From assembly GCA_963840035.1 (NCBI GenBank), contig CAWIXE010000002.1:480001-544000 (forward strand): DNA of 64,000 bases. The letters run 5' to 3'. A program made the translations under genes and the position numbers. The stretch comes from a candidate division FCPU426 bacterium (GTDB lineage Bacteria > Oederibacteriota > PGYV01 > Palsa-1178). Below the pieces are notes generated by a model. The model saw only the letters and a program-made list of their open reading frames with translations. It made no database searches and was not told the DNA's origin. Below, in pieces: positions 25,746-40,059 of the stretch (the first letter of the stretch is position 1; each line of letters starts with the position of its first letter).

Positions 25746-27995
25746 ATGAAAACTAATAAGTCAAAAAATCAAAATAATATGCTGGCAGGAGCCATAAGGG
25801 ACTTCGGGCAGTTTAACACCATGGTACTTTCTTTCCTTGTTGCATTCATAGGCCAGTACCTCGTCTATTTTAATAAAATGATACTGCCGGGCGTTATTTT
25901 ATTCGCGCTGGCAGTTGTCATTTTTATCCTTTCTGACATTTATGGAAAAAAAGACATAAATGTTGAGGAACAAATTGCTCCCGCGGTTGAAGTCGCGTTA
26001 TTCCTTGCCATCATGGCTGTAGCGGTATTTTTCAGGGTGTGGATGCTCGACCAACTGCCGTCAGGCTGCTACCGCGATGAAGGGGAAAACGGAAACGAAG
26101 CCATAAATATAATGAACGGCATAGAGCTGGAAGGAACTGCCACGCCGGTTTACATAGAGCGCCTGACACAGCAGGCTGCAATGTATAATTATTTTATCGC
26201 TGTAATTTTCAAAATATTCGGCATTGGCGTTGTGCAGATAAGGGCGGCTTCGGTTGTCTTCGGCGTATTATGCGTCCCGGCCGTTTATTTCCTTGTCAGG
26301 CACCTTTTCGGCGTCAGGCTTGCCGTAATCGGCGCGTTCCTTCTTGCCGTAACACGCTGGCACATAAACTTTTCCAGGATAGGTTTTGTAGGCATTGTTT
26401 CAGTTTTTTTTGTTGCTGTCTGCCTTTATTTCGCGTACAGGGTTTACAGGAAAAGGGGCGTCATTGATTTTGTCATGCTCGGCGCCACAACCGCGCTGTC
26501 GCTCTACTCTTACATTGCCGCGAGGTTCATACCCGTCGGTTTATTTATTTTCATGGCATATGTTTTTGTCACCGAAAGGTCCTTTTTTAAAAACTATAAA
26601 AAGCAGATGATGGCCGGCATCATAGCGTTCCTCATAGTTTTCGCGCCGCTTGGATTGTATGTGGCGCAGCACCCGCAGAACTTCATGAACAGGGCGTCAA
26701 AAGTATCCATATTTAATAAAGACACGCTTAAGGTAATCGGCGGAAGGTACCTGGCTAAAGACGGCCAGCCTAAAAGCTGGATTTCACTATACGCTGAAAA
26801 TACGATTAACACTATCCTTATGTTCAATTACCGCGGGGACGGAAATTCCAGGCATAATTACCAGGGCAAACCCATGCTGGATTTTGTTTCGGGGATGCTT
26901 TTTGTGCTCGGGTTTGGTTATGTCCTTTATCATTTCAGGAAACCCAGATATTTCCTCCTGCTTGTGATGTTCGGATCCCTTGTGCAGCCCGGGCTGCTTA
27001 CCATTGAGTCGCCGCAGGCGTTAAGGACCGTTACGCTTGTGCCGCTTATCATTATTTTCATTGTAATCTTTTTACAGAAACTTTATGAAGCCGCGCTCGC
27101 TCAGTATGGCAAGGCTTCTCTTAAGGTGTTAACAGGCGTTCTTGCCGCGCTGATGTTGTTCGTGGCGGCGGATAATTACACCCAGTATTTTGAAAAATAC
27201 AGGGATAACCCGGGTTCGTGGGCTGATTTTTCCGTGGAGGAATATTCCATGGCAAAATACATACATGACCTCGGGCCGGACTGGACAGCCATAGTCCAGC
27301 CTGACTGGATAGACAGCTATACGTTCCACTTCGGGACATATCCGTACCAGAATTATGAGCGTTTTGAACTCTCCGAGTGGGTGCCGATAAAATCAAAAAT
27401 AAGAAAGAATTTCACCTATGTCATCGGCAGCGAGTATCTTCCGCTTGTCCCGCTTTTAAGGCAGATATACCCGAACGGGAAATACGGGGAATTCAGGCAT
27501 AAGTTTAATCAGCAGCTTCTGTTTTACTTTACATATGAAGTGCCTTACGATGACATAAAGAAGTTTCAGGATGGCCCGGGTTTTAAGAACGGGCTAAACG
27601 CCAGATATTATTACGGAACAGACTGGAAGGGAAAATTACAGCTTTCCAGGGTTGACCCGCTCATACTTTTTAACTGGACCAGGGATCCGGTGGCGTCGCC
27701 ATTCTCAGTGTTATGGGAAGGCAGGATTTTCATAAAAACCGCAGGGGAGTATCAGTTCAGGACTGTTTCAAATGACTTCTCCGATGTTTACATAGACGGT
27801 AAAAAGGTTGTTGAAAACCCCGGTTTCGCAAAGACACAGGATAAGACGGACGGGGACATAAAACTATCCGCGGGTTATCACTCTATACGGGTGCGGTATT
27901 CAGAGTCAATTCAGCATTCAAAAATGCATTTCTGGTGGAAGCCTGCGGGCGCTGACGATTTCGAGATTGTGCCAAGCTCGGTTTTGTTCAGGTGA
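25746..27995 (+). CDS. GT-C (ArnT/PMT-like) membrane glycosyltransferase with C-terminal PA14 domain, copy 1
   Basis: About 13 TM; P.GCYRDE loop motif; WHINFSRIG; PA14-like GLNARYY..FSVLWEGRI..SNDFSDVYIDG..GYHSIRVRY. Confidence 0.8.
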   Translation: MKTNKSKNQNNMLAGAIRDFGQFNTMVLSFLVAFIGQYLVYFNKMILPGVILFALAVVIFILSDIYGKKDINVEEQIAPAVEVALFLAIMAVAVFFRVWMLDQLPSGCYRDEGENGNEAINIMNGIELEGTATPVYIERLTQQAAMYNYFIAVIFKIFGIGVVQIRAASVVFGVLCVPAVYFLVRHLFGVRLAVIGAFLLAVTRWHINFSRIGFVGIVSVFFVAVCLYFAYRVYRKRGVIDFVMLGATTALSLYSYIAARFIPVGLFIFMAYVFVTERSFFKNYKKQMMAGIIAFLIVFAPLGLYVAQHPQNFMNRASKVSIFNKDTLKVIGGRYLAKDGQPKSWISLYAENTINTILMFNYRGDGNSRHNYQGKPMLDFVSGMLFVLGFGYVLYHFRKPRYFLLLVMFGSLVQPGLLTIESPQALRTVTLVPLIIIFIVIFLQKLYEAALAQYGKASLKVLTGVLAALMLFVAADNYTQYFEKYRDNPGSWADFSVEEYSMAKYIHDLGPDWTAIVQPDWIDSYTFHFGTYPYQNYERFELSEWVPIKSKIRKNFTYVIGSEYLPLVPLLRQIYPNGKYGEFRHKFNQQLLFYFTYEVPYDDIKKFQDGPGFKNGLNARYYYGTDWKGKLQLSRVDPLILFNWTRDPVASPFSVLWEGRIFIKTAGEYQFRTVSNDFSDVYIDGKKVVENPGFAKTQDKTDGDIKLSAGYHSIRVRYSESIQHSKMHFWWKPAGADDFEIVPSSVLFR

Positions 27996-28011
27996 GTATT
28001 GTTTTTGTATT

Positions 28012-28129
28012 GGTAGCCGCAGCCTCCATGTCCGCCGAAGCTTTAGCGGAGACGGATTAGGCTGCGCAACGCCGCGTTTCGCATCCTTAACTATGTTCTG
28101 CCTTACGCAGCCTGAAGGCTGCGGCTACC
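28012..28129. repeat. Inverted GTAG-REP pair with a second palindrome nested in the first copy
   Basis: ggtagccgcagcct[ccatgtccgccgaagctttagcggagacgga]ttaggctgcg ... cgcagcctgaaggctgcggctacc. Confidence 0.75.
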
Positions 28130-28161
28130 GGAATATAAAAAGATAAAATCGGGAGGTACTT

Positions 28162-30423
28162 GTGGGAAAAAAGAAAAAAAAGGTAAAAAAATACGGGAAT
28201 AACCGGCCGCTTATGAAGTCCATATATGAGTTCGGGACATTTAACCTTACAGCGCTTGCTTTTCTCGTGGCGCTTACCGGACAGTTCTGCCTTTATATGC
28301 AGAAGTGGCTTATTCCGGGGCTGGTTTTATACGCCATAGCGGTGATAATATTTATCATAGCTGAAAATGCCGGAAAGAAACCTGAAGAAAAAGAAAACAT
28401 AGCGCCATCCATGGAAATTGCCCTGTTCCTGTCCATCCTTGCTGTCGCGGTATTTTTCAGGGTGTGGATGATAGACCAGCTTCCGGCAGGCTGCTACCGC
28501 GATGAAGGGCAAAACGGTACGGAAGGCATAAATATAATGAACGGTGTGGAATTAGACGGGACAAAACTCCCGGTTTATATAGAAAGATGGACGCAAAACG
28601 CCGCCATGTACATGTATTTTATCGCGGCGTTCTTCAAGCTTTTTGGCATCGGGGTCATTCAGATAAGGGAAGTATCGGTGTTTATCGGCGTGTTGTGCGT
28701 GCCGGCTTTTTACTTCCTGGCAAGGTACCTTTTTGGAGTCAGGGTGGCGTTAATCGGGGCGTTTTTAATGGCTGTCACGCGCTGGCATGTCAACTTCTCA
28801 AGGATAGGTTTTTTGGGCATTGCCACGGTATTCTTCGTCATTACCTGTATGTACTTCGCTTACAGGCTTTACAGGAAAAGGCAGGTAACTGATTTTATAA
28901 TTTTCGGGGCATTAACAGCCCTGTCACTTTATACATACCTGGCGTCCAGGCTTATCCCGGTTGGTTTCGCGATATTTATGGTTTATATGTTTTTTGCGGA
29001 ATCAAAATTTTATAAGAAGAATTTAAAGGGGCTGCTTTTCGGCATAACAGCCTTTTTTGTGGTTGCGGCGCCGCTTGGCATTTATGCCATGCAGCACCCG
29101 GAGAATTTTATGTCAAGATCATCCACGGTTTCCATATTTAACCAGGAAATGCTCCATGAAGTGGGGGGGCGTTATGTGGAAAAGGACGGTACCACGCCAA
29201 AGCACTGGACAAAACTGTACGCGGAAAATTTTTGCAATACCATGCTCATGTTCAACTACGTGGGCGACGGAAACCCCCGGCATAATTTCCATACACAGCC
29301 CATGCTGGACTTCATTTCCGGGATATTTTTTGTGCTGGGCTTTGGGTACGCTGTCTTCCATTTATTAAAAGCGCGGTATTTCCTGCTGCTTGCGCTTTTC
29401 GCGGCATTTCTCCAGACAGGCCTGCTTTCCACGGAGTCGCCACAGGCATACAGGACCATTGTGGAAATCCCGGTTGTCATAATATTCATGCTGATATTTT
29501 TTGAGCAGCTGTTCAAAAATGCCTACGCTCAGTACGGTAAAAAGATCATGCTGCCGCTTGTCCTGTCCGTTTCGCTCGCGTTAGGCGTGGTCGGCGTGAA
29601 TAACTACCTGCTGTATTTTGACAAATGGGCGAATAACCCGGGAAGCTGGGCGGAGTTTTCTTCTGATGAATATTCCATGGGAAGGTATGTGAAAGGCCTT
29701 GGCGACGACTGGACCGCTATAGTGCAGGCGGACTGGGTCGAGAGTTATACTTTCCGTTTCGCCATTTATCCTAATAATAATGTGGAGGTATTCAACCCGT
29801 CAGACTGGATACCCATCCAGTCAAAGATTAGGAAGAACTTTGTTTTCATCCTTGACGATACATACCTGCCGATGCTTACCATCTTAAGGCGCATGTATCC
29901 TGAGGGAAAGTATACCGATTTCAGGCATAAGTTCTATCCGAACCTGGTGCTTTACTGGACATACGAAGTGCCGTATGAGGCGGTAAAAAGGTACCAGGAT
30001 AAGCCCAATAAGAACGGGTTAACGGGATACTATTATAAGGGCCTTAAATGGGAAGGTAAACCCGCGTTTACCAGGCTTGACCCGTTTATACTTTTTAACT
30101 GGACCAGGGACCCGATAATGGGGCCTTTTTCGGTTAAGTGGGCCGGGAAGCTGTACGCTGAAAAAACAGGCACATATACCTTCATGACCGAGTCAAACGA
30201 CTACTCCGACCTTTATATAGACGGCAAGCAGGTCATAAATAACCCCGGTTATTCAAAGGGGCAGCAGAATATAAAGCAGGATATAAAACTCTCCGCGGGA
30301 TACCATTCCATACAGCTGCGTTATTATGAATCGATACATTACTCGCGCATGCAGTTTTTCTGGCGCGCGCCGGGGATGGAAGACATGGAGGTTGTGCCAA
30401 GTGAAGTCCTCATCCCGCAGTAA
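28162..30423 (+). CDS. GT-C membrane glycosyltransferase with PA14 domain, copy 2 (paralog)
   Basis: Colinear with 25746..27995 (PAGCYRDEG, WHVNFSRIG, NPGSWAEFS, FNWTRDP). Confidence 0.8.
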   Translation: MGKKKKKVKKYGNNRPLMKSIYEFGTFNLTALAFLVALTGQFCLYMQKWLIPGLVLYAIAVIIFIIAENAGKKPEEKENIAPSMEIALFLSILAVAVFFRVWMIDQLPAGCYRDEGQNGTEGINIMNGVELDGTKLPVYIERWTQNAAMYMYFIAAFFKLFGIGVIQIREVSVFIGVLCVPAFYFLARYLFGVRVALIGAFLMAVTRWHVNFSRIGFLGIATVFFVITCMYFAYRLYRKRQVTDFIIFGALTALSLYTYLASRLIPVGFAIFMVYMFFAESKFYKKNLKGLLFGITAFFVVAAPLGIYAMQHPENFMSRSSTVSIFNQEMLHEVGGRYVEKDGTTPKHWTKLYAENFCNTMLMFNYVGDGNPRHNFHTQPMLDFISGIFFVLGFGYAVFHLLKARYFLLLALFAAFLQTGLLSTESPQAYRTIVEIPVVIIFMLIFFEQLFKNAYAQYGKKIMLPLVLSVSLALGVVGVNNYLLYFDKWANNPGSWAEFSSDEYSMGRYVKGLGDDWTAIVQADWVESYTFRFAIYPNNNVEVFNPSDWIPIQSKIRKNFVFILDDTYLPMLTILRRMYPEGKYTDFRHKFYPNLVLYWTYEVPYEAVKRYQDKPNKNGLTGYYYKGLKWEGKPAFTRLDPFILFNWTRDPIMGPFSVKWAGKLYAEKTGTYTFMTESNDYSDLYIDGKQVINNPGYSKGQQNIKQDIKLSAGYHSIQLRYYESIHYSRMQFFWRAPGMEDMEVVPSEVLIPQ

Positions 30424-31213
30424 AAAACAGAAAGTTGTAGTGGTCATGCCGGCGTATAACGCGGCAAAGACCCTTGAGAAGACATACAGGGATATACCCA
30501 AGAGCGTTGTGGACAGGATAATACTTGTCGATGATGTCTCAAAAGACGAGACAGTCGAAGTGGCAAGGCACCTGGGCATCAAGACCATAGTCCACATACA
30601 AAATAAAGGCTACGGCGGCAACCAGAAGACCTGTTACATAGAAGCTTTAAAGGAAGGCGCGGATATCGTGGTCATGCTCCACCCGGATTACCAGTATGAT
30701 TCAAGGCTCATACCCGAGATGATAGCGCCTATCATAAACGGCCACGCGGATTTTGTGCTCGGCTCAAGGATGCTCGGAGAAGGCGCCCTGCGCGGCGGGA
30801 TGCCTTTGTACAAGTACATTTCAAACAAGGTGCTTACATTCATCGAGAACGAGTGCTTCGGCAAGCATTACTCCGAACTGCATACGGGGTTCAGGGCATA
30901 CAGCAGGAAGCTCCTGACCACGATACCTTTCACCCTTAACTCGGATGATTTTGTTTTTGACACGGAAGTCATAGCGCAGGTGGAGATGTTCAAGTTCCAG
31001 TCGAGCGAAGTGCCTGTGCCGACGAGGTACTTTAAGGAAGCTTCATCAATAAATTTTTTAAGGTCTTCCATTTACGGACTTGCCACACTGAAGGTCATGG
31101 CACAGTTCCTCATGCATAAGTGGGGGATAAAGAAATACCCCAAGTTCAGCAAAACCTTATCCGATGTTGTCAGCCCCTTTTACGCGAAAAAGTTAAAAAA
31201 AGGAAGCAAATAA
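30401..31213 (+). CDS. GT2 family glycosyltransferase (DPM1-like polyprenol-phosphate sugar synthase)
   Basis: VVMPAYN, VDDVSKD, NKGYGGNQK, LHPDYQY, VLGSR, HTGFRAY; GTG after GGAGG. Confidence 0.85.
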   Translation: MKSSSRSKKQKVVVVMPAYNAAKTLEKTYRDIPKSVVDRIILVDDVSKDETVEVARHLGIKTIVHIQNKGYGGNQKTCYIEALKEGADIVVMLHPDYQYDSRLIPEMIAPIINGHADFVLGSRMLGEGALRGGMPLYKYISNKVLTFIENECFGKHYSELHTGFRAYSRKLLTTIPFTLNSDDFVFDTEVIAQVEMFKFQSSEVPVPTRYFKEASSINFLRSSIYGLATLKVMAQFLMHKWGIKKYPKFSKTLSDVVSPFYAKKLKKGSK

Positions 31214-32265
31214 TGGTGAAAAAAATAATTTTCTGGCTTGGAATGGCTGTGACGGTAGTTTGCATGTATTTTGTCCTGCGTGGCATTAAATACAATGAAC
31301 TGCTGGAAATAGTAAGCCATATAAACATATGGCTGCTGTGCGCGACCGTAGCCCTTTATATAGGCGGCTATTACATCAGGGCTGAGCGGTGGCACCATCT
31401 GTTAAAGCACATAAAGCCGCTTAAAGCGGTGGAGCTGTTTCCCTACCTGGTAATGGGATTTATGTTCAATAACGTCCTGCCGGCGCGTGCCGGCGAGTTC
31501 ATCAGGGCGTATATGACAGGCACGAAAAAGGGCGTCTCAAAGTCGTCTACTTTCGCGACGGTGGTCATAGAAAGGGTCTTTGACGGGCTTGTCATGATTT
31601 TTTACTTCATTATAGGATATCTTGCGTTCCATTTCATAACAAAGCAGTCAGAAGTGCCGCCGATAAATGTATTCTCGTTTTCTTTCGGCGTAAAGGACGC
31701 GGTTTTAGCTTTTGCAATCGCGGGGAGCGTTTTATTTATAGGAATTTTTGTTTTTATGTTTATGCTGCTTTATAAAAGGGAAGCCACGGAAAAATTTATT
31801 CATACCATGTTGAAAGTTTTTCCGGAGAGTATTCGTTCCAAAGCGGTCGGGTTCCTGGATACTTTCATTAACGGGCTCGGCGTGCTTGGCAGCCTAAAGG
31901 ATATAATGACGGTTTTTGGTCTTTCTTTCCTGGCGTGGACAGTGGAGGCTTTTACTTACTGGCTGATGGGACAGGCCATGCATTTGCATATAAGCTTCCT
32001 GCTAATCTGTCTTATTATGTCGGTGGCGAATTTTGCCATAATGGTGCCGTCCACCGCGGGTGGAGTCGGGCCCTTTGAGTTTTTTGGCATGGCGATTATG
32101 CTCCTGTTTGCCTACCAGAAAGAAGAAGCGGCGGCTTTTGTTTTTATAGTACATATGATGATACTTATACCGATAATTATTCTTGGCCTTATCTTTATGT
32201 TCACGGAAGGCCTGACATTTAAAAAAGTATTAACAGAAAAAGAAAAGGAGGAAACAGCAAAATGA
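31213..32265 (+). CDS. Flippase-like membrane protein (LPG synthase TM/UPF0104 family)
   Basis: [37 protein letters not shown]. Confidence 0.85.
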
Positions 32266-33680: not shown

Positions 33681-34019
33681 ATACAACTGATTGTAATCAC
33701 TTCAAAAGTATATCCAAATAGACATCCAAAACTCGATTTATAAAACCGGTTCAAAAAAAAGCCTTATTTTTAAGGTGTTTTTTTACTTAAAATTCAGGTT
33801 AATTAAACTAAAGTAAAATATATTTTTGCTTAAATATTTTACGTAACCGGTTAATCATATTTTTATCCATGTTTATATAGTGTTTATAAAAATGGCTTTC
33901 TAGTATTTTATACGCCTATCCTGCCTCGCGCGGTAGAAACTAAAAAAAAGCGCTTTTGTCTAAATATATAGACAAGGCGCAGGACTGTGCGCCTTAATTT
34001 AATTATACGAGGTATGACG

Positions 34020-35477
34020 ATGAGAATAACCGCACCTGTAGCCGCCCTCTTTGTCATCGTTTTTCTATTATTACCTGCGCAATCGTATTGTGCGCAGGCA
34101 GCTGACCAGGGAGTTTTTGTAGTCCCTGAATCTGAACGGCCACTTGATTTTGTGGTAATAGGATTGTGGTCAAATAACCATAAGTATATATGTATGCCTG
34201 AAGTTAACTGGCCAAAGTCTGCAAGTTTACCGCAAAAGAGGGAAATTGAAAAACAACTATACTGGATTAACCTTGAATTTACCCACGGCGAGATACTCCA
34301 AAAACTTCCGGCGTACACGAAAATATTTGTGGCAGTGCCAAACAGCGCCAGCGTTAATGACGCCACCGGGGACGAAAAGAGTTATTTTATAGATTACCTG
34401 AAAGCCAGATGCGGTTTTACCGACGCCGGGATAAAACTGCGTGTTAAATTTTTCCATTCATCCGCGATGATTGTCTGGCCGCAGGATATGTGCAAAGTAA
34501 TCGGATATGACAGGGTTGATGGCAGGGTGGCAATAGCGCGCAGCGCCGGAGACGCGGATATATACGTAAAAGTTACAAAGGAACTCACTGACGCCTTTCC
34601 GGAAACGTTTGTTTTAAAGGATGTGGATAAAAATACAAGCGCGGAAGGCGGGGACGAGGACATTATTAAACTCCCGGGGCCGGGCCATAAAGTGGCAATA
34701 ATAACAGGAAGGCACCGCGTACAGCGATATGCCGAGAGGGTAAAAGGCGTTTCTTTTGACAGAGCGCCTATAGATGACGCCATGAAAGCGGAAGCTGCCG
34801 CGGCATTTTCCAAATCGTATTTCGGGGTGGAAGCGGTTTTTCTCCCTGAGGAAATAATGAAAAAACCGGAAAAGGGAAGCGAAGAAGTATTTCACCTGGA
34901 TATGGTGACTTCCATACTGCCGGACCCTAAAGGCGGCAAACCGAAAGCTTTCATACCGTCGATAGCCAATAATTGCTATGTCTCATTAAATGACGAACAG
35001 CTTAATAAGGAATTCGTATCCCACATACAGGCGGAATATGACGCAGCCGCGTCCCAGATGCGCAGGCTCGGTTTTGACACGCCCAGGCTGTATTACTGCG
35101 ATCATCCGGTAAGGGGCCCGGTAAATATAATAAAGTACCATGATAAAATATCAGGCGGTTATTCCGTTATGCTGGGAAAATACCCGAACCACCTGCCCGT
35201 GGACGACCCCTATACAGCCCAGCACAGGGTAACGGATATTTTCAAGCTGCTGGCTAACCGTTTCAATGAGTGGTCAAATAAACAGGACGCGGCAACATAT
35301 AAACAGCTAAAGGCAACCATGGACGGCGTCTGGACGGTCATGGATACGGTCTCAGAAGAGACAAACAGCGTTTATGATGAGCAGAAAAAGATGTTTGAAA
35401 AGTACGGTTATAACGTAATAACAGTGCCGGTATACGCCTGGGGAGCGGGCGGGCTGCACTGTATGGTTATGTACTGA
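34020..35477 (+). CDS. Secreted pentein-superfamily enzyme (agmatine/peptidylarginine deiminase-like)
   Basis: Signal peptide; ordered motifs WPQD, EGGD, HLD, PVN and terminal GGLHC. Confidence 0.7.
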   Translation: MRITAPVAALFVIVFLLLPAQSYCAQAADQGVFVVPESERPLDFVVIGLWSNNHKYICMPEVNWPKSASLPQKREIEKQLYWINLEFTHGEILQKLPAYTKIFVAVPNSASVNDATGDEKSYFIDYLKARCGFTDAGIKLRVKFFHSSAMIVWPQDMCKVIGYDRVDGRVAIARSAGDADIYVKVTKELTDAFPETFVLKDVDKNTSAEGGDEDIIKLPGPGHKVAIITGRHRVQRYAERVKGVSFDRAPIDDAMKAEAAAAFSKSYFGVEAVFLPEEIMKKPEKGSEEVFHLDMVTSILPDPKGGKPKAFIPSIANNCYVSLNDEQLNKEFVSHIQAEYDAAASQMRRLGFDTPRLYYCDHPVRGPVNIIKYHDKISGGYSVMLGKYPNHLPVDDPYTAQHRVTDIFKLLANRFNEWSNKQDAATYKQLKATMDGVWTVMDTVSEETNSVYDEQKKMFEKYGYNVITVPVYAWGAGGLHCMVMY

Positions 35478-35532: not shown

Positions 35533-35950
35533 TCGTAGGGGCGATTCACGAATCGCCCAAAACGATGGTTCTTGTAGAGACGCAGACTTGCCGCGTCTCT
35601 TTTTTGTTTATGTTCTGGGTATTGGTCTCCGTAGGGGCGAGCCGGTGGCTCGCCCGGATCTTGATCCCGGCCTAAAGGTCGCGTGTGTTTTTGCCTATGC
35701 CACTGGCTCACCCGGAGTTAAATACAATAAATGTCTGTAAAATATTGAATAATCATAAAACCATGATTATTTACAGAGTTTTAAACAAAGTGCTAATAAA
35801 ATAAGTGGGATTTTGTTATAATGTCTTGAGTCAAGGCACGGTGTGGGGATTCTGAATCCCAAAATAAATATGAAACAGGTCTCGTAGGGGCGATTCACGA
35901 ATCGCCCAAAACGATGGTTCTTGTAGAGACGCAGCTTGCTGCGTCTCTTT
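35533..35950. repeat. Cluster of five GTAG-REP palindromes including a ~70-bp direct duplication
   Basis: REPs at 35535, 35574, 35631, 35884, 35923; 35533-35585 identical to 35882-35934. Confidence 0.85.
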
Positions 35951-36120
35951 TTTTATATCAAAATAATAATAATGCTTGAATGTACGATATAAACTAAGTG
36001 ATAACAAAAAAATGGTTTTTTGTTATAATATCTTTACCCAAGGCGTGATGTATTTTTTTTGCATTATCTTTGATGCTTCGTGTTAAAGTGCGTAAAAATT
36101 TGTAATATCGATGGTGATGA

Positions 36121-36850: not shown

Positions 36851-37402
36851 GTGGACAAAAAGCTTAAAATTAAGAGTGAAATCCTTGACAAACCTTCCAT
36901 TGAGCGGGCATTGACCCGTATTTCCCATGAAATAATCGAAAAAAACAAAGGCGCTAAGAATGTCTATATCGTGGGTATACGCTCACGGGGCGATGTTTTA
37001 GCAGCCCGTATCGCTAAAAAAATCAATGAAATAGAGAATGTGGCAGTGCCTGTGGGCGCTGTGGATATTACATTTTACCGGGACGACTATGACCGTGTCA
37101 CAAAAGCTGAAGTAAAATCAACCGAACTGCCCGTGTCAGTGGATGATAAGGATATAGTTCTGGTGGATGACGTGCTTTATACGGGCAGGTCCACGCGCGC
37201 TGCCATGGATGTCATCATCGAATTCGGCAGGCCAAAAACCATTCAACTGGCTGTTCTCATAGACCGCGGGCATAGGGAACTGCCAATACAAGCGAATTAC
37301 GTAGGTAAAAATGTGCCGACAAGTTCTGAAGAAATGATAGTTTTAAAGTTACAGGAATCTGACGGCGAAGAAAAAGTTCTTCTTGCCGAAAAGGAGGCGT
37401 AA
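36851..37402 (+). CDS. pyrR: Bifunctional pyr operon attenuation protein/UPRTase PyrR
   Basis: [39 protein letters not shown]. Confidence 0.96.
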
Positions 37403-37403
37403 G

Positions 37404-38337
37404 ATGTCACTTAACCATCTTATTTCACTGCAGGATATTTCAGCCGAACAGATAACAGAGATTTTAAATCTTGCTAAAACTTTTAAGGAAGTAAATGAAC
37501 GGCAGGTAAAAAAACTTCCCACGCTTAAAGGCAAAACTGTCGCCAACTTTTTCTTCGAAAATTCCACCAGGACCAAAACTTCGTTTGAAATAGCGGCAAA
37601 GAGGCTCTCGGCAGATGTTCTTAACCTGGCGATATCCACATCCTCAGTGGCCAAGGGTGAAACCCTGATCGATACCATCCGCACTATTGAAGCCATGCAG
37701 ATAGACATCGTAGTAATCAGGCACGGCGTTTCAGGCGTGCCTCATATGTTAACCAGCAAAATATCCTCCCATATAATAAACGCCGGAGACGGCATGCACG
37801 AGCACCCTACGCAGGGGCTGCTGGATATGTTTACCATGAGGGACAAAAAGGGCCACCTGGAAGGATTGACCGTGGCTTTGGTTGGCGACATAGCGCACTC
37901 GCGCGTGGCGCGCTCGAACATATGGGGGCTGAAAAAGATGGGGGCGAAAGTACGCGTTGTCGGCCCGGCAACGTCTCATACCGCGCGACATAGAACAAAT
38001 GGGCGTGGAAGTCTATAATGACCTTGAAAAAGGCATCAAGGGCGCTGATGTGGTAAACATACTCAGGATACAGCTTGAAAGGATGAAAAAGCATCTCTTC
38101 CCGACAATCAGGGAATACGCCATGCTCTTCGGGGTCAATACCACAAAATTAAAAAGCGCGAAGCCGGACTGCCTTGTCATGCATCCGGGGCCGATGAACC
38201 GCGGCATAGAAATATCGCCGAACGTGGCTGACGGGCCGCAGTCGGTCATAGAAGAACAGGTGACAAACGGAGTGGCTGTGAGAATGGCTGTCCTGTATCT
38301 CATGGGAGGAGGCAAATCAAATGAAATTATTGATTAA
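37404..38337 (+). pseudogene. pyrB: Aspartate carbamoyltransferase, split by one extra base near 37974 (error or pseudogene)
   Basis: FFENSTRT, HPTQ, GDIAHSRVARS in one frame; [21 protein letters not shown] in the next; deleting T37974 restores GPATLIPRD. Confidence 0.85.
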
Positions 38338-39631: not shown

Positions 39632-39684
39632 GGAAAACTAAAAATATGACAGGACGTTTGGGCTTGAAAAATGGGGGGGCGCAA

Positions 39685-40059
39685 ATGAATGTTGTTAAGA
39701 GTTTTGAGGACCTTGAAGTGTGGAAAAAAGCAATAGATATATCTGATCTTACACATGCAATTGTAGATGATTTTCCAAAGCAGGCGATATGGACGCTGGG
39801 TACGCAGATGTTAAGGTCTTCTGTTTCTATAGGATCAAACATTGCAGAAGGATGCGAGCGCCAGCATACGCCGGAATACATACAATTTTGTTATATTGCC
39901 CTGGGATCATGTGCGGAACTATATACACAACTTATAATTGCAAAAAGAAGAAAGTATCTGCCTGAGGAAAAATATGATCAGATATCAGAAATGATCCAGC
40001 ATGAACGAAGAATGTTGCTGAATTTAACAAAAAGCCTGAAATTAAGAAGAAAACAGTAA
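39685..40059 (+). CDS. Four helix bundle protein (23S rRNA IVP/Avd-like family)
   Basis: SFEDLEVWKKA, FP, L..QMLRSSVSIGSNIAEG, F..IALGSCAELYTQL. Confidence 0.92.
   Translation: MNVVKSFEDLEVWKKAIDISDLTHAIVDDFPKQAIWTLGTQMLRSSVSIGSNIAEGCERQHTPEYIQFCYIALGSCAELYTQLIIAKRRKYLPEEKYDQISEMIQHERRMLLNLTKSLKLRRKQ

What the first reader, a model, noticed from the sequence alone, without database searches (positions are those of the whole stretch)
34020..35477. Secreted, divergent deiminase-like enzyme with an intact catalytic motif set
Seen: signal peptide and ordered motifs WPQD, EGGD, FHLD, PVN and GAGGLHC four residues from the C-terminus, with a helical-looking insertion before the last motif. Known: pentein enzymes (agmatine deiminase, PPAD, PAD, ADI) use Asp, His-x-Asp and a terminal Cys; WxQD is the animal PAD-type form. 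Inference: an extracytoplasmic guanidino-modifying enzyme, possibly a protein-citrullinating deiminase. No agmatine or arginine catabolic genes are adjacent.
Basis: partly seen in the sequence, partly recalled or inferred. Interest (0 to 1): 0.7.

Follow-up and report, generated by a model that had tools for sequence, protein, structure and literature searches.

The report
Unnamed exported arginine-deiminase-fold enzyme family
This gene encodes a protein with an export signal that is predicted to fold like arginine-modifying deiminases and keeps their five catalytic residues; it belongs to a family no protein database model recognises, and it likely converts arginine in peptides to citrulline outside the cytoplasm, though the substrate is untested.

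Summary
Window 34020-35477 (+) encodes a 485-aa protein with an N-terminal export signal and the ordered motifs WPQD, EGGD, FHLD, PVN and GAGGLHC. Pfam and NCBIfam do not recognise it, yet it has 109 homologues at 28-63% identity. In 105 aligned members D156, H292, D294 and C481 are invariant, and N369 is kept in 103. The AlphaFold model (pLDDT 95.8) matches penteins: PPAD Z 24.6, agmatine deiminases 22.4-23.9, Ca-bound PAD3/4 20.1-20.8, ADI/DDAH/amidinotransferases 18 or less. It fails membership tests for agmatine deiminase, PPAD and PAD. Export signals are family-wide (85/105), neighbours are unrelated, and the genome lacks aguB and arcC but has agmatinase, so a catabolic role is unlikely. 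New here: positions 159 and 214 covary between Q/E/E (38/105), which has the spacing of the PAD calcium-1 ligands, and Q/K/D (28/105, including this protein), where lysine likely replaces the ion. Verdict: a new exported family of the guanidino-modifying superfamily, very likely an active deiminase (about 0.85). Peptidyl-arginine is the most likely substrate (about 0.45), untested.

The parts
34020..35477 (+). CDS, 485 aa (P0001), exported pentein-fold guanidino-modifying enzyme; single copy in the genome
34020..34097 (+). predicted Sec signal peptide (about aa1-26; cleavage site approximate)
   Evidence: hydrophobic core 3.74; hydrophobic N-terminus in 85 of 105 family members
34227..34286 (+). 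conserved helix aa70-89 with the family motif YWLNFELxHG (G90 invariant)
34476..34496 (+). W153-P-Q155-D156-M-C-K159: first guanidinium-binding Asp, channel Trp, and the PAD Ca1-like positions 155 and 159
   Evidence: D156 105/105, W153 89/105, Q155 92/105; aligns to AgD WxRD; PAD4 WMQDEME
34644..34661 (+). E209-G-G-D212-E-D214: EGG motif; position 214 covaries with 159
   Evidence: EGGD 105/105; covariation; PAD4 FGNLE
34884..34904 (+). E289-V-F-H292-L-D294-M: catalytic His and second Asp; acidic residue at His-3
   Evidence: F, H, D, M 105/105; E/D at 289 in 102/105
35100..35126 (+). D361-H-P-V-R365-G-P-V-N369: family signature ending in the conserved pentein Asn
   Evidence: D361, P363, R365, P367 105/105; N369 103/105; Arg at Asn-4 also in both sister proteins
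35187..35375 (+). about 60-residue helical-hairpin insertion (about aa390-452) with conserved W418 and W438, absent from agmatine deiminases and from sister L138
35442..35462 (+). G-A-G-G-L-H-C481: predicted catalytic nucleophile, four residues before the C-terminus
   Evidence: G477, H480, C481 105/105; the model's last residue aligns four residues after the catalytic Cys of PPAD, C. jejuni AgD and PAD3
33740..33775 (+). upstream element conserved with close homologue locus L146; possible regulatory site
   Evidence: 33 of 36 identical, E 5e-8; not found in front of most other members
33956..33975 (.). short palindrome upstream of the RBS; its first 14 nt are shared with L146

Best explanation
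The protein is a stand-alone, likely exported enzyme with a predicted pentein fold that likely removes ammonia from arginine side chains in peptides or proteins outside the cytoplasm, turning them into citrulline. Predicted steps, by analogy with PPAD and PAD4: D156 and D294 hold the guanidinium in a channel lined by W153. C481 attacks the guanidino carbon, H292 acts as acid/base, ammonia leaves, and water hydrolyses the covalent intermediate to a ureido group; N369 completes the site. In 38 of 105 members a PAD-like calcium-1 site (Q/E/E at 155/159/214) likely stabilises the core. In this protein K159 paired with D214 likely replaces the ion, so it would be calcium-independent. Shown: motifs, conservation, hydrophobic N-terminus, lack of partner genes, covariation. 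Predicted: fold. Inferred: export, activity (about 0.85 for a guanidino hydrolase), substrate class.
For: Fold: Foldseek top hits are C. jejuni AgD (E 3.8e-9) and PPAD (E 3.7e-8). VIA gives PPAD Z 24.6 (rmsd 2.8, 282 aligned), AgDs 22.4-23.9, Ca-bound PAD3/4 20.1-20.8, and ADI 17.5, DDAH 17.2, AGAT 16.7. All five residues that PMC4893104 calls strictly conserved (PPAD D130, H236, D238, N297, C351) have counterparts kept in 103-105 of 105, aligned motif to motif with AgD by hhalign. Both Asp are kept, unlike the ureido-acting CtlX (PMC9007349), which points to a guanidino substrate. Export signal in 85 of 105; 12 N-termini were short, truncated or not located and 8 were below threshold. No aguB: the two CN-hydrolases are NadE and Lnt. 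No arcC over cut-off. The genome has pdaD-speE-agmatinase. Four Acidobacteriota carriers have separate agmatine deiminase and ADI genes (4 of 5 genomes each), so the family does not replace them. The Trp that walls the agmatine channel in plant AgD (PMC6447857) has no clear counterpart: W in 3 of 105 in the matching segment. WxQD plus Glu at Asp+3 and at GGx+2 reproduces the spacing of PAD4 Ca1 ligands 349/353/411. Positions 159 and 214 are each other's top covarying pair (MI-APC 0.38, Neff 64), and Q/K/D arises in more than one clade.
Against: No activity data. PPAD's lead over agmatine deiminases is only 0.7-2.2 Z. The R-x-R pair used by PPAD and present in PAD4 (SPRNR) is missing (2 of 105). 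A conserved acid at His-3 (E289) lies next to the His-4 acid that binds agmatine's amine in plant AgD. Profile-to-profile scores are weak: AgD probability 23-37 local, 11-65 global depending on the set; PPAD-like 2.0; PAD 1.5. The loop comparison rests on a low-confidence part of these alignments. Two Holophagales loci have a divergent spermidine-synthase-domain gene next door (L023, L025), a faint polyamine hint. Covariation may be inflated by relatedness.
Confidence: 0.45

Rival explanations
1. It is a periplasmic deiminase for a small free substrate (agmatine, free arginine or a similar guanidine), releasing ammonia outside the cytoplasm for nitrogen supply or pH buffering.
For: Agmatine deiminases are nearly tied with PPAD as closest folds. 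The best profile match is AgD. Acidic E289 at His-3 in 102 of 105, and Glu at Cys-5 in 12 of 105, would suit a distal amine. The genome makes agmatine (pdaD). No R-x-R.
Against: No aguB, arcC or transporter partner. Agmatinase is already present. Acidobacteriota carriers keep separate AgD and ADI genes. The AgD WxRD and the lid Trp are absent.
Confidence: 0.28
2. It modifies a non-peptide guanidino or amidino group outside the cell, such as an antibiotic or an envelope glycan or lipid, by hydrolysis or by amidino transfer.
For: Penteins can take unusual substrates, for example NnhA on 2-nitroimidazole (PMC11659421). The best sequence-profile hits in the PDB include amidinotransferases HsvA (E 0.069) and StrB1 (E 2.8). 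The family has invariant residues of its own (R40, D361, R365) and a Trp-bearing hairpin that could form a second binding site. Distribution is patchy: 26 of 99 genomes in its phylum.
Against: Amidinotransferases score far lower by fold (Z 15.9-16.7). No biosynthetic, resistance or glycan cluster recurs among the 97 neighbours scanned. Not found in plasmids or viral contigs.
Confidence: 0.2
3. It is a catalytically inactive pentein used as a binding or scaffold protein.
For: Inactive penteins exist (PADI6, titled 'Inactive'; eIF6).
Against: D156, H292, D294 and C481 are invariant across 105 sequences down to 28% identity.
Confidence: 0.04

Closest known systems
Porphyromonas gingivalis peptidylarginine deiminase (PPAD; PDB 4yt9/5ak7)
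   Same: Top structural match (Z 24.6, rmsd 2.8, 282 aligned); exported; same five catalytic residues and channel Trp.
   Different: 10-12% identity; WxQD instead of WxRD; no R152/R154 pair; no C-terminal Ig-like or T9SS domain (the chain ends four residues after the Cys); about 60-residue helical hairpin. True PPAD-like proteins (YNRPRPNDD) exist separately in Acidobacteriota.
Agmatine deiminases (PF04371; C. jejuni 6b10, E. faecalis 2jer, plant 6nib)
   Same: Z 22.4-23.9; motif-by-motif alignment of W-x-x-D, EGG, H-x-D, N and HC.
   Different: No Pfam hit; the local AgD profile scores it E 0.61; no FNxWG lid Trp; acid at His-3 rather than His-4; export signal; no agmatine catabolic genes.
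Animal and bacterial PADs (PF03068; human PAD4)
   Same: WxQD; in 38 of 105 members Glu at Asp+3 and GGx+2, the spacing of Ca1 ligands 349/353/411; Z 20.1-20.8 to Ca-bound forms.
   Different: No PAD_N or PAD_M domain; no R-N-R; profile alignment to bacterial PADs not significant; this protein has Lys at the Glu353-like position.
Arginine deiminase, DDAH and amidinotransferases
   Same: EGGD and HLD motif forms as in ADI; same fold.
   Different: Z 15-17.5; no PF02274 or PF19420 match; no arc genes.

Membership tests
Pentein / guanidino-modifying superfamily (CL0197) | alpha/beta propeller fold | tested here: met
   Predicted model pLDDT 95.8; ranks 1-18 of 48161 chains are penteins (Z 13.1-24.6), rank 19 is eIF6 (8.6), unrelated folds 7.8 or less
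Pentein / guanidino-modifying superfamily (CL0197) | Asp, His-x-Asp, Asn and C-terminal Cys in order | tested here: met
   D156, H292, D294, C481 105/105; N369 103/105; aligned to AgD motifs
Pentein / guanidino-modifying superfamily (CL0197) | catalytic residues converge in one pocket | tested here: inconclusive
   No coordinates returned. Only the register of the Cys is shown: the last aligned residue is Cys+4 in PPAD (351/355), C. jejuni AgD (315/319) and PAD3 (646/650)
Pentein / guanidino-modifying superfamily (CL0197) | Cys-dependent turnover of a guanidino substrate | not testable with these tools
   needs an assay
Agmatine deiminase (PF04371) | Pfam PAD_porph match | tested here: not met
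   no hit for P0001 at E up to 10 or for 32 relatives at E up to 0.05; 0 of 99 phylum genomes, controls ring in 5 of 14
Agmatine deiminase (PF04371) | WxRD and FNxWG lid Trp | tested here: not met
   R at 155 in 12 of 105, not in P0001; W in aa172-184 in 3 of 105; the loop alignment is low-confidence
Agmatine deiminase (PF04371) | acid at His-4 binding the agmatine amine | tested here: inconclusive
   His-4 variable (D29, E24 of 105); His-3 acidic in 102 of 105
Agmatine deiminase (PF04371) | aguB or carbamate-kinase partner genes | tested here: not met
   putrescine carbamoyltransferase was not searched separately
PPAD | export signal | tested here: met
   hydrophobicity rule only
PPAD | R152-x-R154 carboxylate clamp | tested here: not met
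   R-x-R in 2 of 105 in the matching segment
PPAD | Ig-like and T9SS C-terminal domains | tested here: not met
   the chain ends four residues after C481; no longer relative found (weak evidence)
PAD (PF03068) | PAD_C profile match and PAD_M/PAD_N domains | tested here: not met
   (the same family search rings in 4 of 401 Acidobacteriota); hhalign probability 1.5
PAD (PF03068) | WxQD motif | tested here: met
   Q155 in 92 of 105; PAD4 WMQD
PAD (PF03068) | Ca1 site (349/353/411) | tested here: inconclusive
   Q/E/E in 38 of 105 by motif-anchored spacing; P0001 has Q/K/D; no residue-level superposition
Arginine deiminase (PF02274) | Pfam ADI match and arc operon | tested here: not met
Amidinotransferase (AGAT/StrB1/HsvA) | closest fold and profile | tested here: inconclusive
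   weak profile hits E 0.069 and 2.8; Z 15.9-16.7; hydrolase versus transferase cannot be told from these

The most novel reading that the evidence does not exclude
This is an independent class of bacterial protein-citrullinating enzymes, exported by uncultured anaerobe-associated lineages and invisible to current annotation. It carries the PAD calcium-1 site on a single PPAD-like domain, and some lineages have swapped the ion for a lysine, making it a natural bridge between calcium-independent PPAD/agmatine deiminases and calcium-activated PADs.
Probability: 0.22. Interest if true: 0.75.

Novelty: new variant of a known kind. Interest (0 to 1): 0.52.

Why it matters
PMC8826395 names PADIs, PPAD and Giardia ADI as the known citrullinating penteins. 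An exported family outside Pfam and NCBIfam, found where 0 of 99 genomes of the phylum match the agmatine-deiminase, ADI or PAD models, would widen this modification to environmental bacteria and supply small single-domain citrullinating enzymes. The natural Glu/Glu versus Lys/Asp pair offers a direct test of how calcium dependence arose in PADs. If the substrate is a small molecule instead, it is still a new exported branch of guanidine metabolism, of more modest interest.

Tried and rejected
Sequence libraries:
- Pfam and NCBIfam gave only sub-threshold noise such as RAP (32 relatives were scanned because the whole alignment was over the size limit).
- PDB by sequence gave only chance hits, E 0.85 or worse, and none for the motif region.
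- A search with the family profile returned 25 proteins, all already known members, so no bridging homologue.
- No longer or fused forms among 6179 candidates (weak evidence); none in viral contigs or plasmids.

Gene context:
- 44 loci were gene-called with a crude script. 97 of the 161 first and second neighbours were scanned, after dropping most apparent orthologues among close kin by eye. They are heterogeneous.
- Proximity to cyclophilin and pyrR-pyrB-pyrC-carAB is shared only with close relative L146, so it is read as synteny, not function.

Upstream AACCGGTT motif as a sugar regulon:
- 21 of 81 genome copies are intergenic, against 11% expected and 5-13% for control palindromes. The longer form sits at 4 intergenic sites, one before a GH5-like gene (named from recalled motifs).
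- Close matches occur in only 4 of 86 upstream regions (window, L146, and loosely L116 and L119). In relatives it precedes unrelated genes or lies inside coding sequence. Not used as evidence.

Tools that gave nothing:
- Complex prediction (homodimer through the hairpin) was not available, so the oligomeric state is open.
- No sequencing run was listed, which says nothing on expression.
- Earlier-findings look-ups returned nothing.
- The careful tree did not finish; only the quick tree is reported.

Literature:
- The Linsky and Fast review was not held.
- Nine searches listed no paper whose title or abstract describes this family. The library lacks most subscription journals and no supplements were read; the network data of PMC11659421 could bear on novelty.

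Full report
Observation. Window 34020-35477 (+) is a 485-aa ORF, single copy in a 3.46-Mb, 98% complete genome. An ordered-motif pattern matched only this protein among 2857 crude ORFs and 0 of 200000 shuffles.

A family without a name. Pfam, NCBIfam and PDB sequence search gave nothing significant. A homologue search returned 110 proteins including the query, at 28-63% identity and nearly all full length; the only Pfam label among them was one RAP entry. Sources call them hypothetical, and those with a taxon name are Ca. Goldbacteria/Goldiibacteriota or Acidobacteria. An unfiltered search of 1.84 billion representatives gave 67 hits, 39 of them at E up to 1e-30. The profile found 26 of 99 genomes of the window's phylum (20 of 60 good-quality) and 2 full-length matches among 301 sampled Acidobacteriota. 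Forty genome loci carried titles including Goldiibacteriota, Thermoanaerobaculia, Holophagales and Terriglobia, and some titled Spirochaetia or proteobacteria, which I did not check. A quick tree of 50 proteins separates an own-phylum group from an Acidobacteriota group, with one own-phylum sequence (G075) inside the latter. The careful search did not finish, so no direction of transfer is claimed. The Atlas listed three hypothetical clusters at 0.91-0.92, one with 10% PAD_porph members; this is a lead only.

Conservation. In 105 aligned sequences (A1; fragments P0025, P0041, P0061, P0084 and P0086 left out), R40, G90, D156, E209-G-G-D212, G230, F291-H292, D294-M295, R356, D361, P363, R365, P367, G477, H480 and C481 are invariant, and N369 is kept in 103. 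PMC4893104 (passages and Discussion read) lists D130, H236, D238, N297 and C351 as strictly conserved in guanidino-modifying enzymes, W127 as a cavity wall, and R152/R154 as the carboxylate clamp. hhalign against agmatine deiminases from Acidobacteriota puts WxQD on WxRD, EGG on EGG, HLD on HVD, N369 near the YxN motif and GGLHC on GGAFHC. The probabilities are low (36 local and 65 global; 37; 23 and 11 with another set). PMC9007349 (passages) notes that the ureido-acting CtlX replaces both Asp by Asn; both are kept here.

Fold. AlphaFold2 gave pLDDT 95.8 and pTM 0.93. Foldseek ranked C. jejuni agmatine deiminase (E 3.8e-9), plant AgD and PPAD first, and PAD4 at rank 46. VIA against 48161 chains: PPAD Z 24.6, Chlorobium 1xkn 23.9, H. 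pylori AgD 22.9, ADI 17.5, DDAH 17.2, AGAT 16.7, unrelated folds 7.8 or less. The second look gave AgDs 22.4-23.9 and Ca-bound PAD3/PAD4 20.1-20.8. The model's last residue aligns four residues after the catalytic Cys named in entry titles (C351, C315, C646), as C481 does here. Coordinates were not returned, so convergence of the site was not measured.

Additions to the core. A helical hairpin of about 60 residues lies between N369 and C481 (112 residues against about 51 in AgD). A signal-bearing sister group in Acidobacteriota (L138/L139 and L140; hhalign 96-98.5) has WAQD, YHLD/FHLD and Arg at Asn-4, has no Pfam hit, and lacks most or all of the hairpin (Asn-Cys 53 and 71). P0138 is a more distant member with a twin-arginine-like N-terminus.

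Location and context. 85 of 105 members have a hydrophobic N-terminal segment (12 short, truncated or not located; 8 below threshold). In 16 it starts after residue 25, suggesting a membrane anchor (a simple hydrophobicity rule). Among 97 of 161 neighbours from 44 loci there is no recurring partner and no arginine or agmatine catabolic gene; two Holophagales loci have a spermidine-synthase-domain gene divergently placed. The own genome has pdaD, speE and agmatinase together, CN-hydrolases that are NadE and Lnt, no arcC over cut-off and no DDAH. PF04371, PF02274 and PF03068 match 0 of 99 phylum genomes (controls ring for the first two, and PF03068 rings in 4 of 401 Acidobacteriota). Four of five other carrier genomes hold their own AgD and ADI. 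A catabolic or polyamine role is therefore unlikely (inference).

Substrate clues. For peptides: export, no partners, no AgD lid Trp (3 of 105; PMC6447857 passages and section 14), PPAD as top fold, and PAD-type WxQD. Against: no R-x-R (2 of 105), an acid at His-3 beside the amine-binding His-4 position of AgD, and a near tie between PPAD and AgD.

A calcium-or-lysine switch. PMC13023937 (passages) gives PAD4 Ca1 ligands as residues 349, 353 and 411. It writes Glu349 in one legend and Gln349 elsewhere; the PDB sequence shows WMQDEME and FGNLE. The equivalent positions by motif spacing are 155, 159 and 214. They are Q/E/E in 38, Q/K/D in 28 and R/K/E in 6 of 105, and the remaining 33 are mixed. 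Positions 159 and 214 are each other's best covarying partner. On a tree built without these columns, Q/E/E is spread over several clades and Q/K/D falls in at least two separate groups. All 16 AgD and PPAD-like controls have Arg at 155. The inference is that a cation sits here: calcium in Q/E/E members, lysine in this protein. This is not verified by superposition, and the profile does not align to bacterial PADs. PMC8826395 (passages and section 7) reports calcium site 1 as conserved in all PADI homologues.

Comparison and novelty. It works like PPAD/agmatine deiminase/PAD chemically, but fails the defining tests for each family (see Membership tests). PMC11659421 (passages) built its superfamily network from Pfam clan CL0197, which this family would not enter. 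Nine literature searches listed no description of it. PMC7031533 (passages) describes Goldbacteria as rare cellulose degraders enriched under anaerobic incubation; the window's lineage is only inferred to be related. The mechanism steps are established pentein chemistry, partly recalled.

Verdict. Real, and a new exported variant family of a known superfamily. Active guanidino hydrolase about 0.85; peptidyl-arginine deiminase 0.45; small-molecule deiminase 0.28; other substrate or transferase 0.20; inactive 0.04. Interest 0.52.

Noticed in passing
window 37383-38337: pyrB (aspartate carbamoyltransferase-like) is split into two overlapping ORFs by one extra base near 37975 relative to the intact 310-aa copy in L146; sequencing error or real frameshift.
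   Followed up: partly
window 35535-35605 and 35882-35955: Two copies of a palindromic REP-like intergenic repeat downstream of the gene; about 76 matches to its 24-nt core genome-wide. The second ends in a terminator-like hairpin at 35925-35948.
   Followed up: partly
window 33740-33775, 33845-33856, 33956-33975: Two AACCGGTT palindromes and a further palindrome upstream. The first element and part of the third are conserved with L146 although the upstream gene differs; a similar site precedes a GH5-like gene and a large secreted protein elsewhere in the genome. Possible operator, unexplained.
   Followed up: partly
L138:1384-2616 (-) and L144:6247-7419 (-): Sister group of signal-bearing WAQD penteins in Acidobacteriota with little or none of the hairpin and no Pfam hit; 2 clear members in 301 genomes.
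   Followed up: partly
L137:988-1596 (+): A family member in G257 whose N-terminal and C-terminal motifs lie close together with the middle missing: an internally deleted gene or an assembly artefact.
   Followed up: no
L099, L100, L107 (also L101, L108): Acidobacteriota encode signal-bearing PPAD-like proteins with YNRPRPNDD and long C-terminal domains, that is, likely PPAD orthologues outside Bacteroidota.
   Followed up: no
L201-L205: Bacterial PAD_C proteins in 4 of 401 Acidobacteriota genomes; L201 matches human PAD4 at E 1e-64 with WLQD and GNLE motifs.
   Followed up: partly
L089, L104, L110 (G107): Five tandem agmatine-deiminase-family genes in one genome.
   Followed up: no
L134 (G000:C2:320535-324311): Gene cluster of pyruvoyl-dependent arginine decarboxylase, speE and agmatinase in the own genome.
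   Followed up: yes
window 25746-32265: Two tandem PMT_2+PA14 membrane glycosyltransferase-like genes, a GT2 and an LPG_synthase_TM gene: a likely surface glycosylation locus upstream; not conserved beside homologues.
   Followed up: no
window 39646-40059: A 23S_rRNA_IVP (four-helix bundle) gene lies between pyrC and carA and is absent at that place in L146.
   Followed up: no
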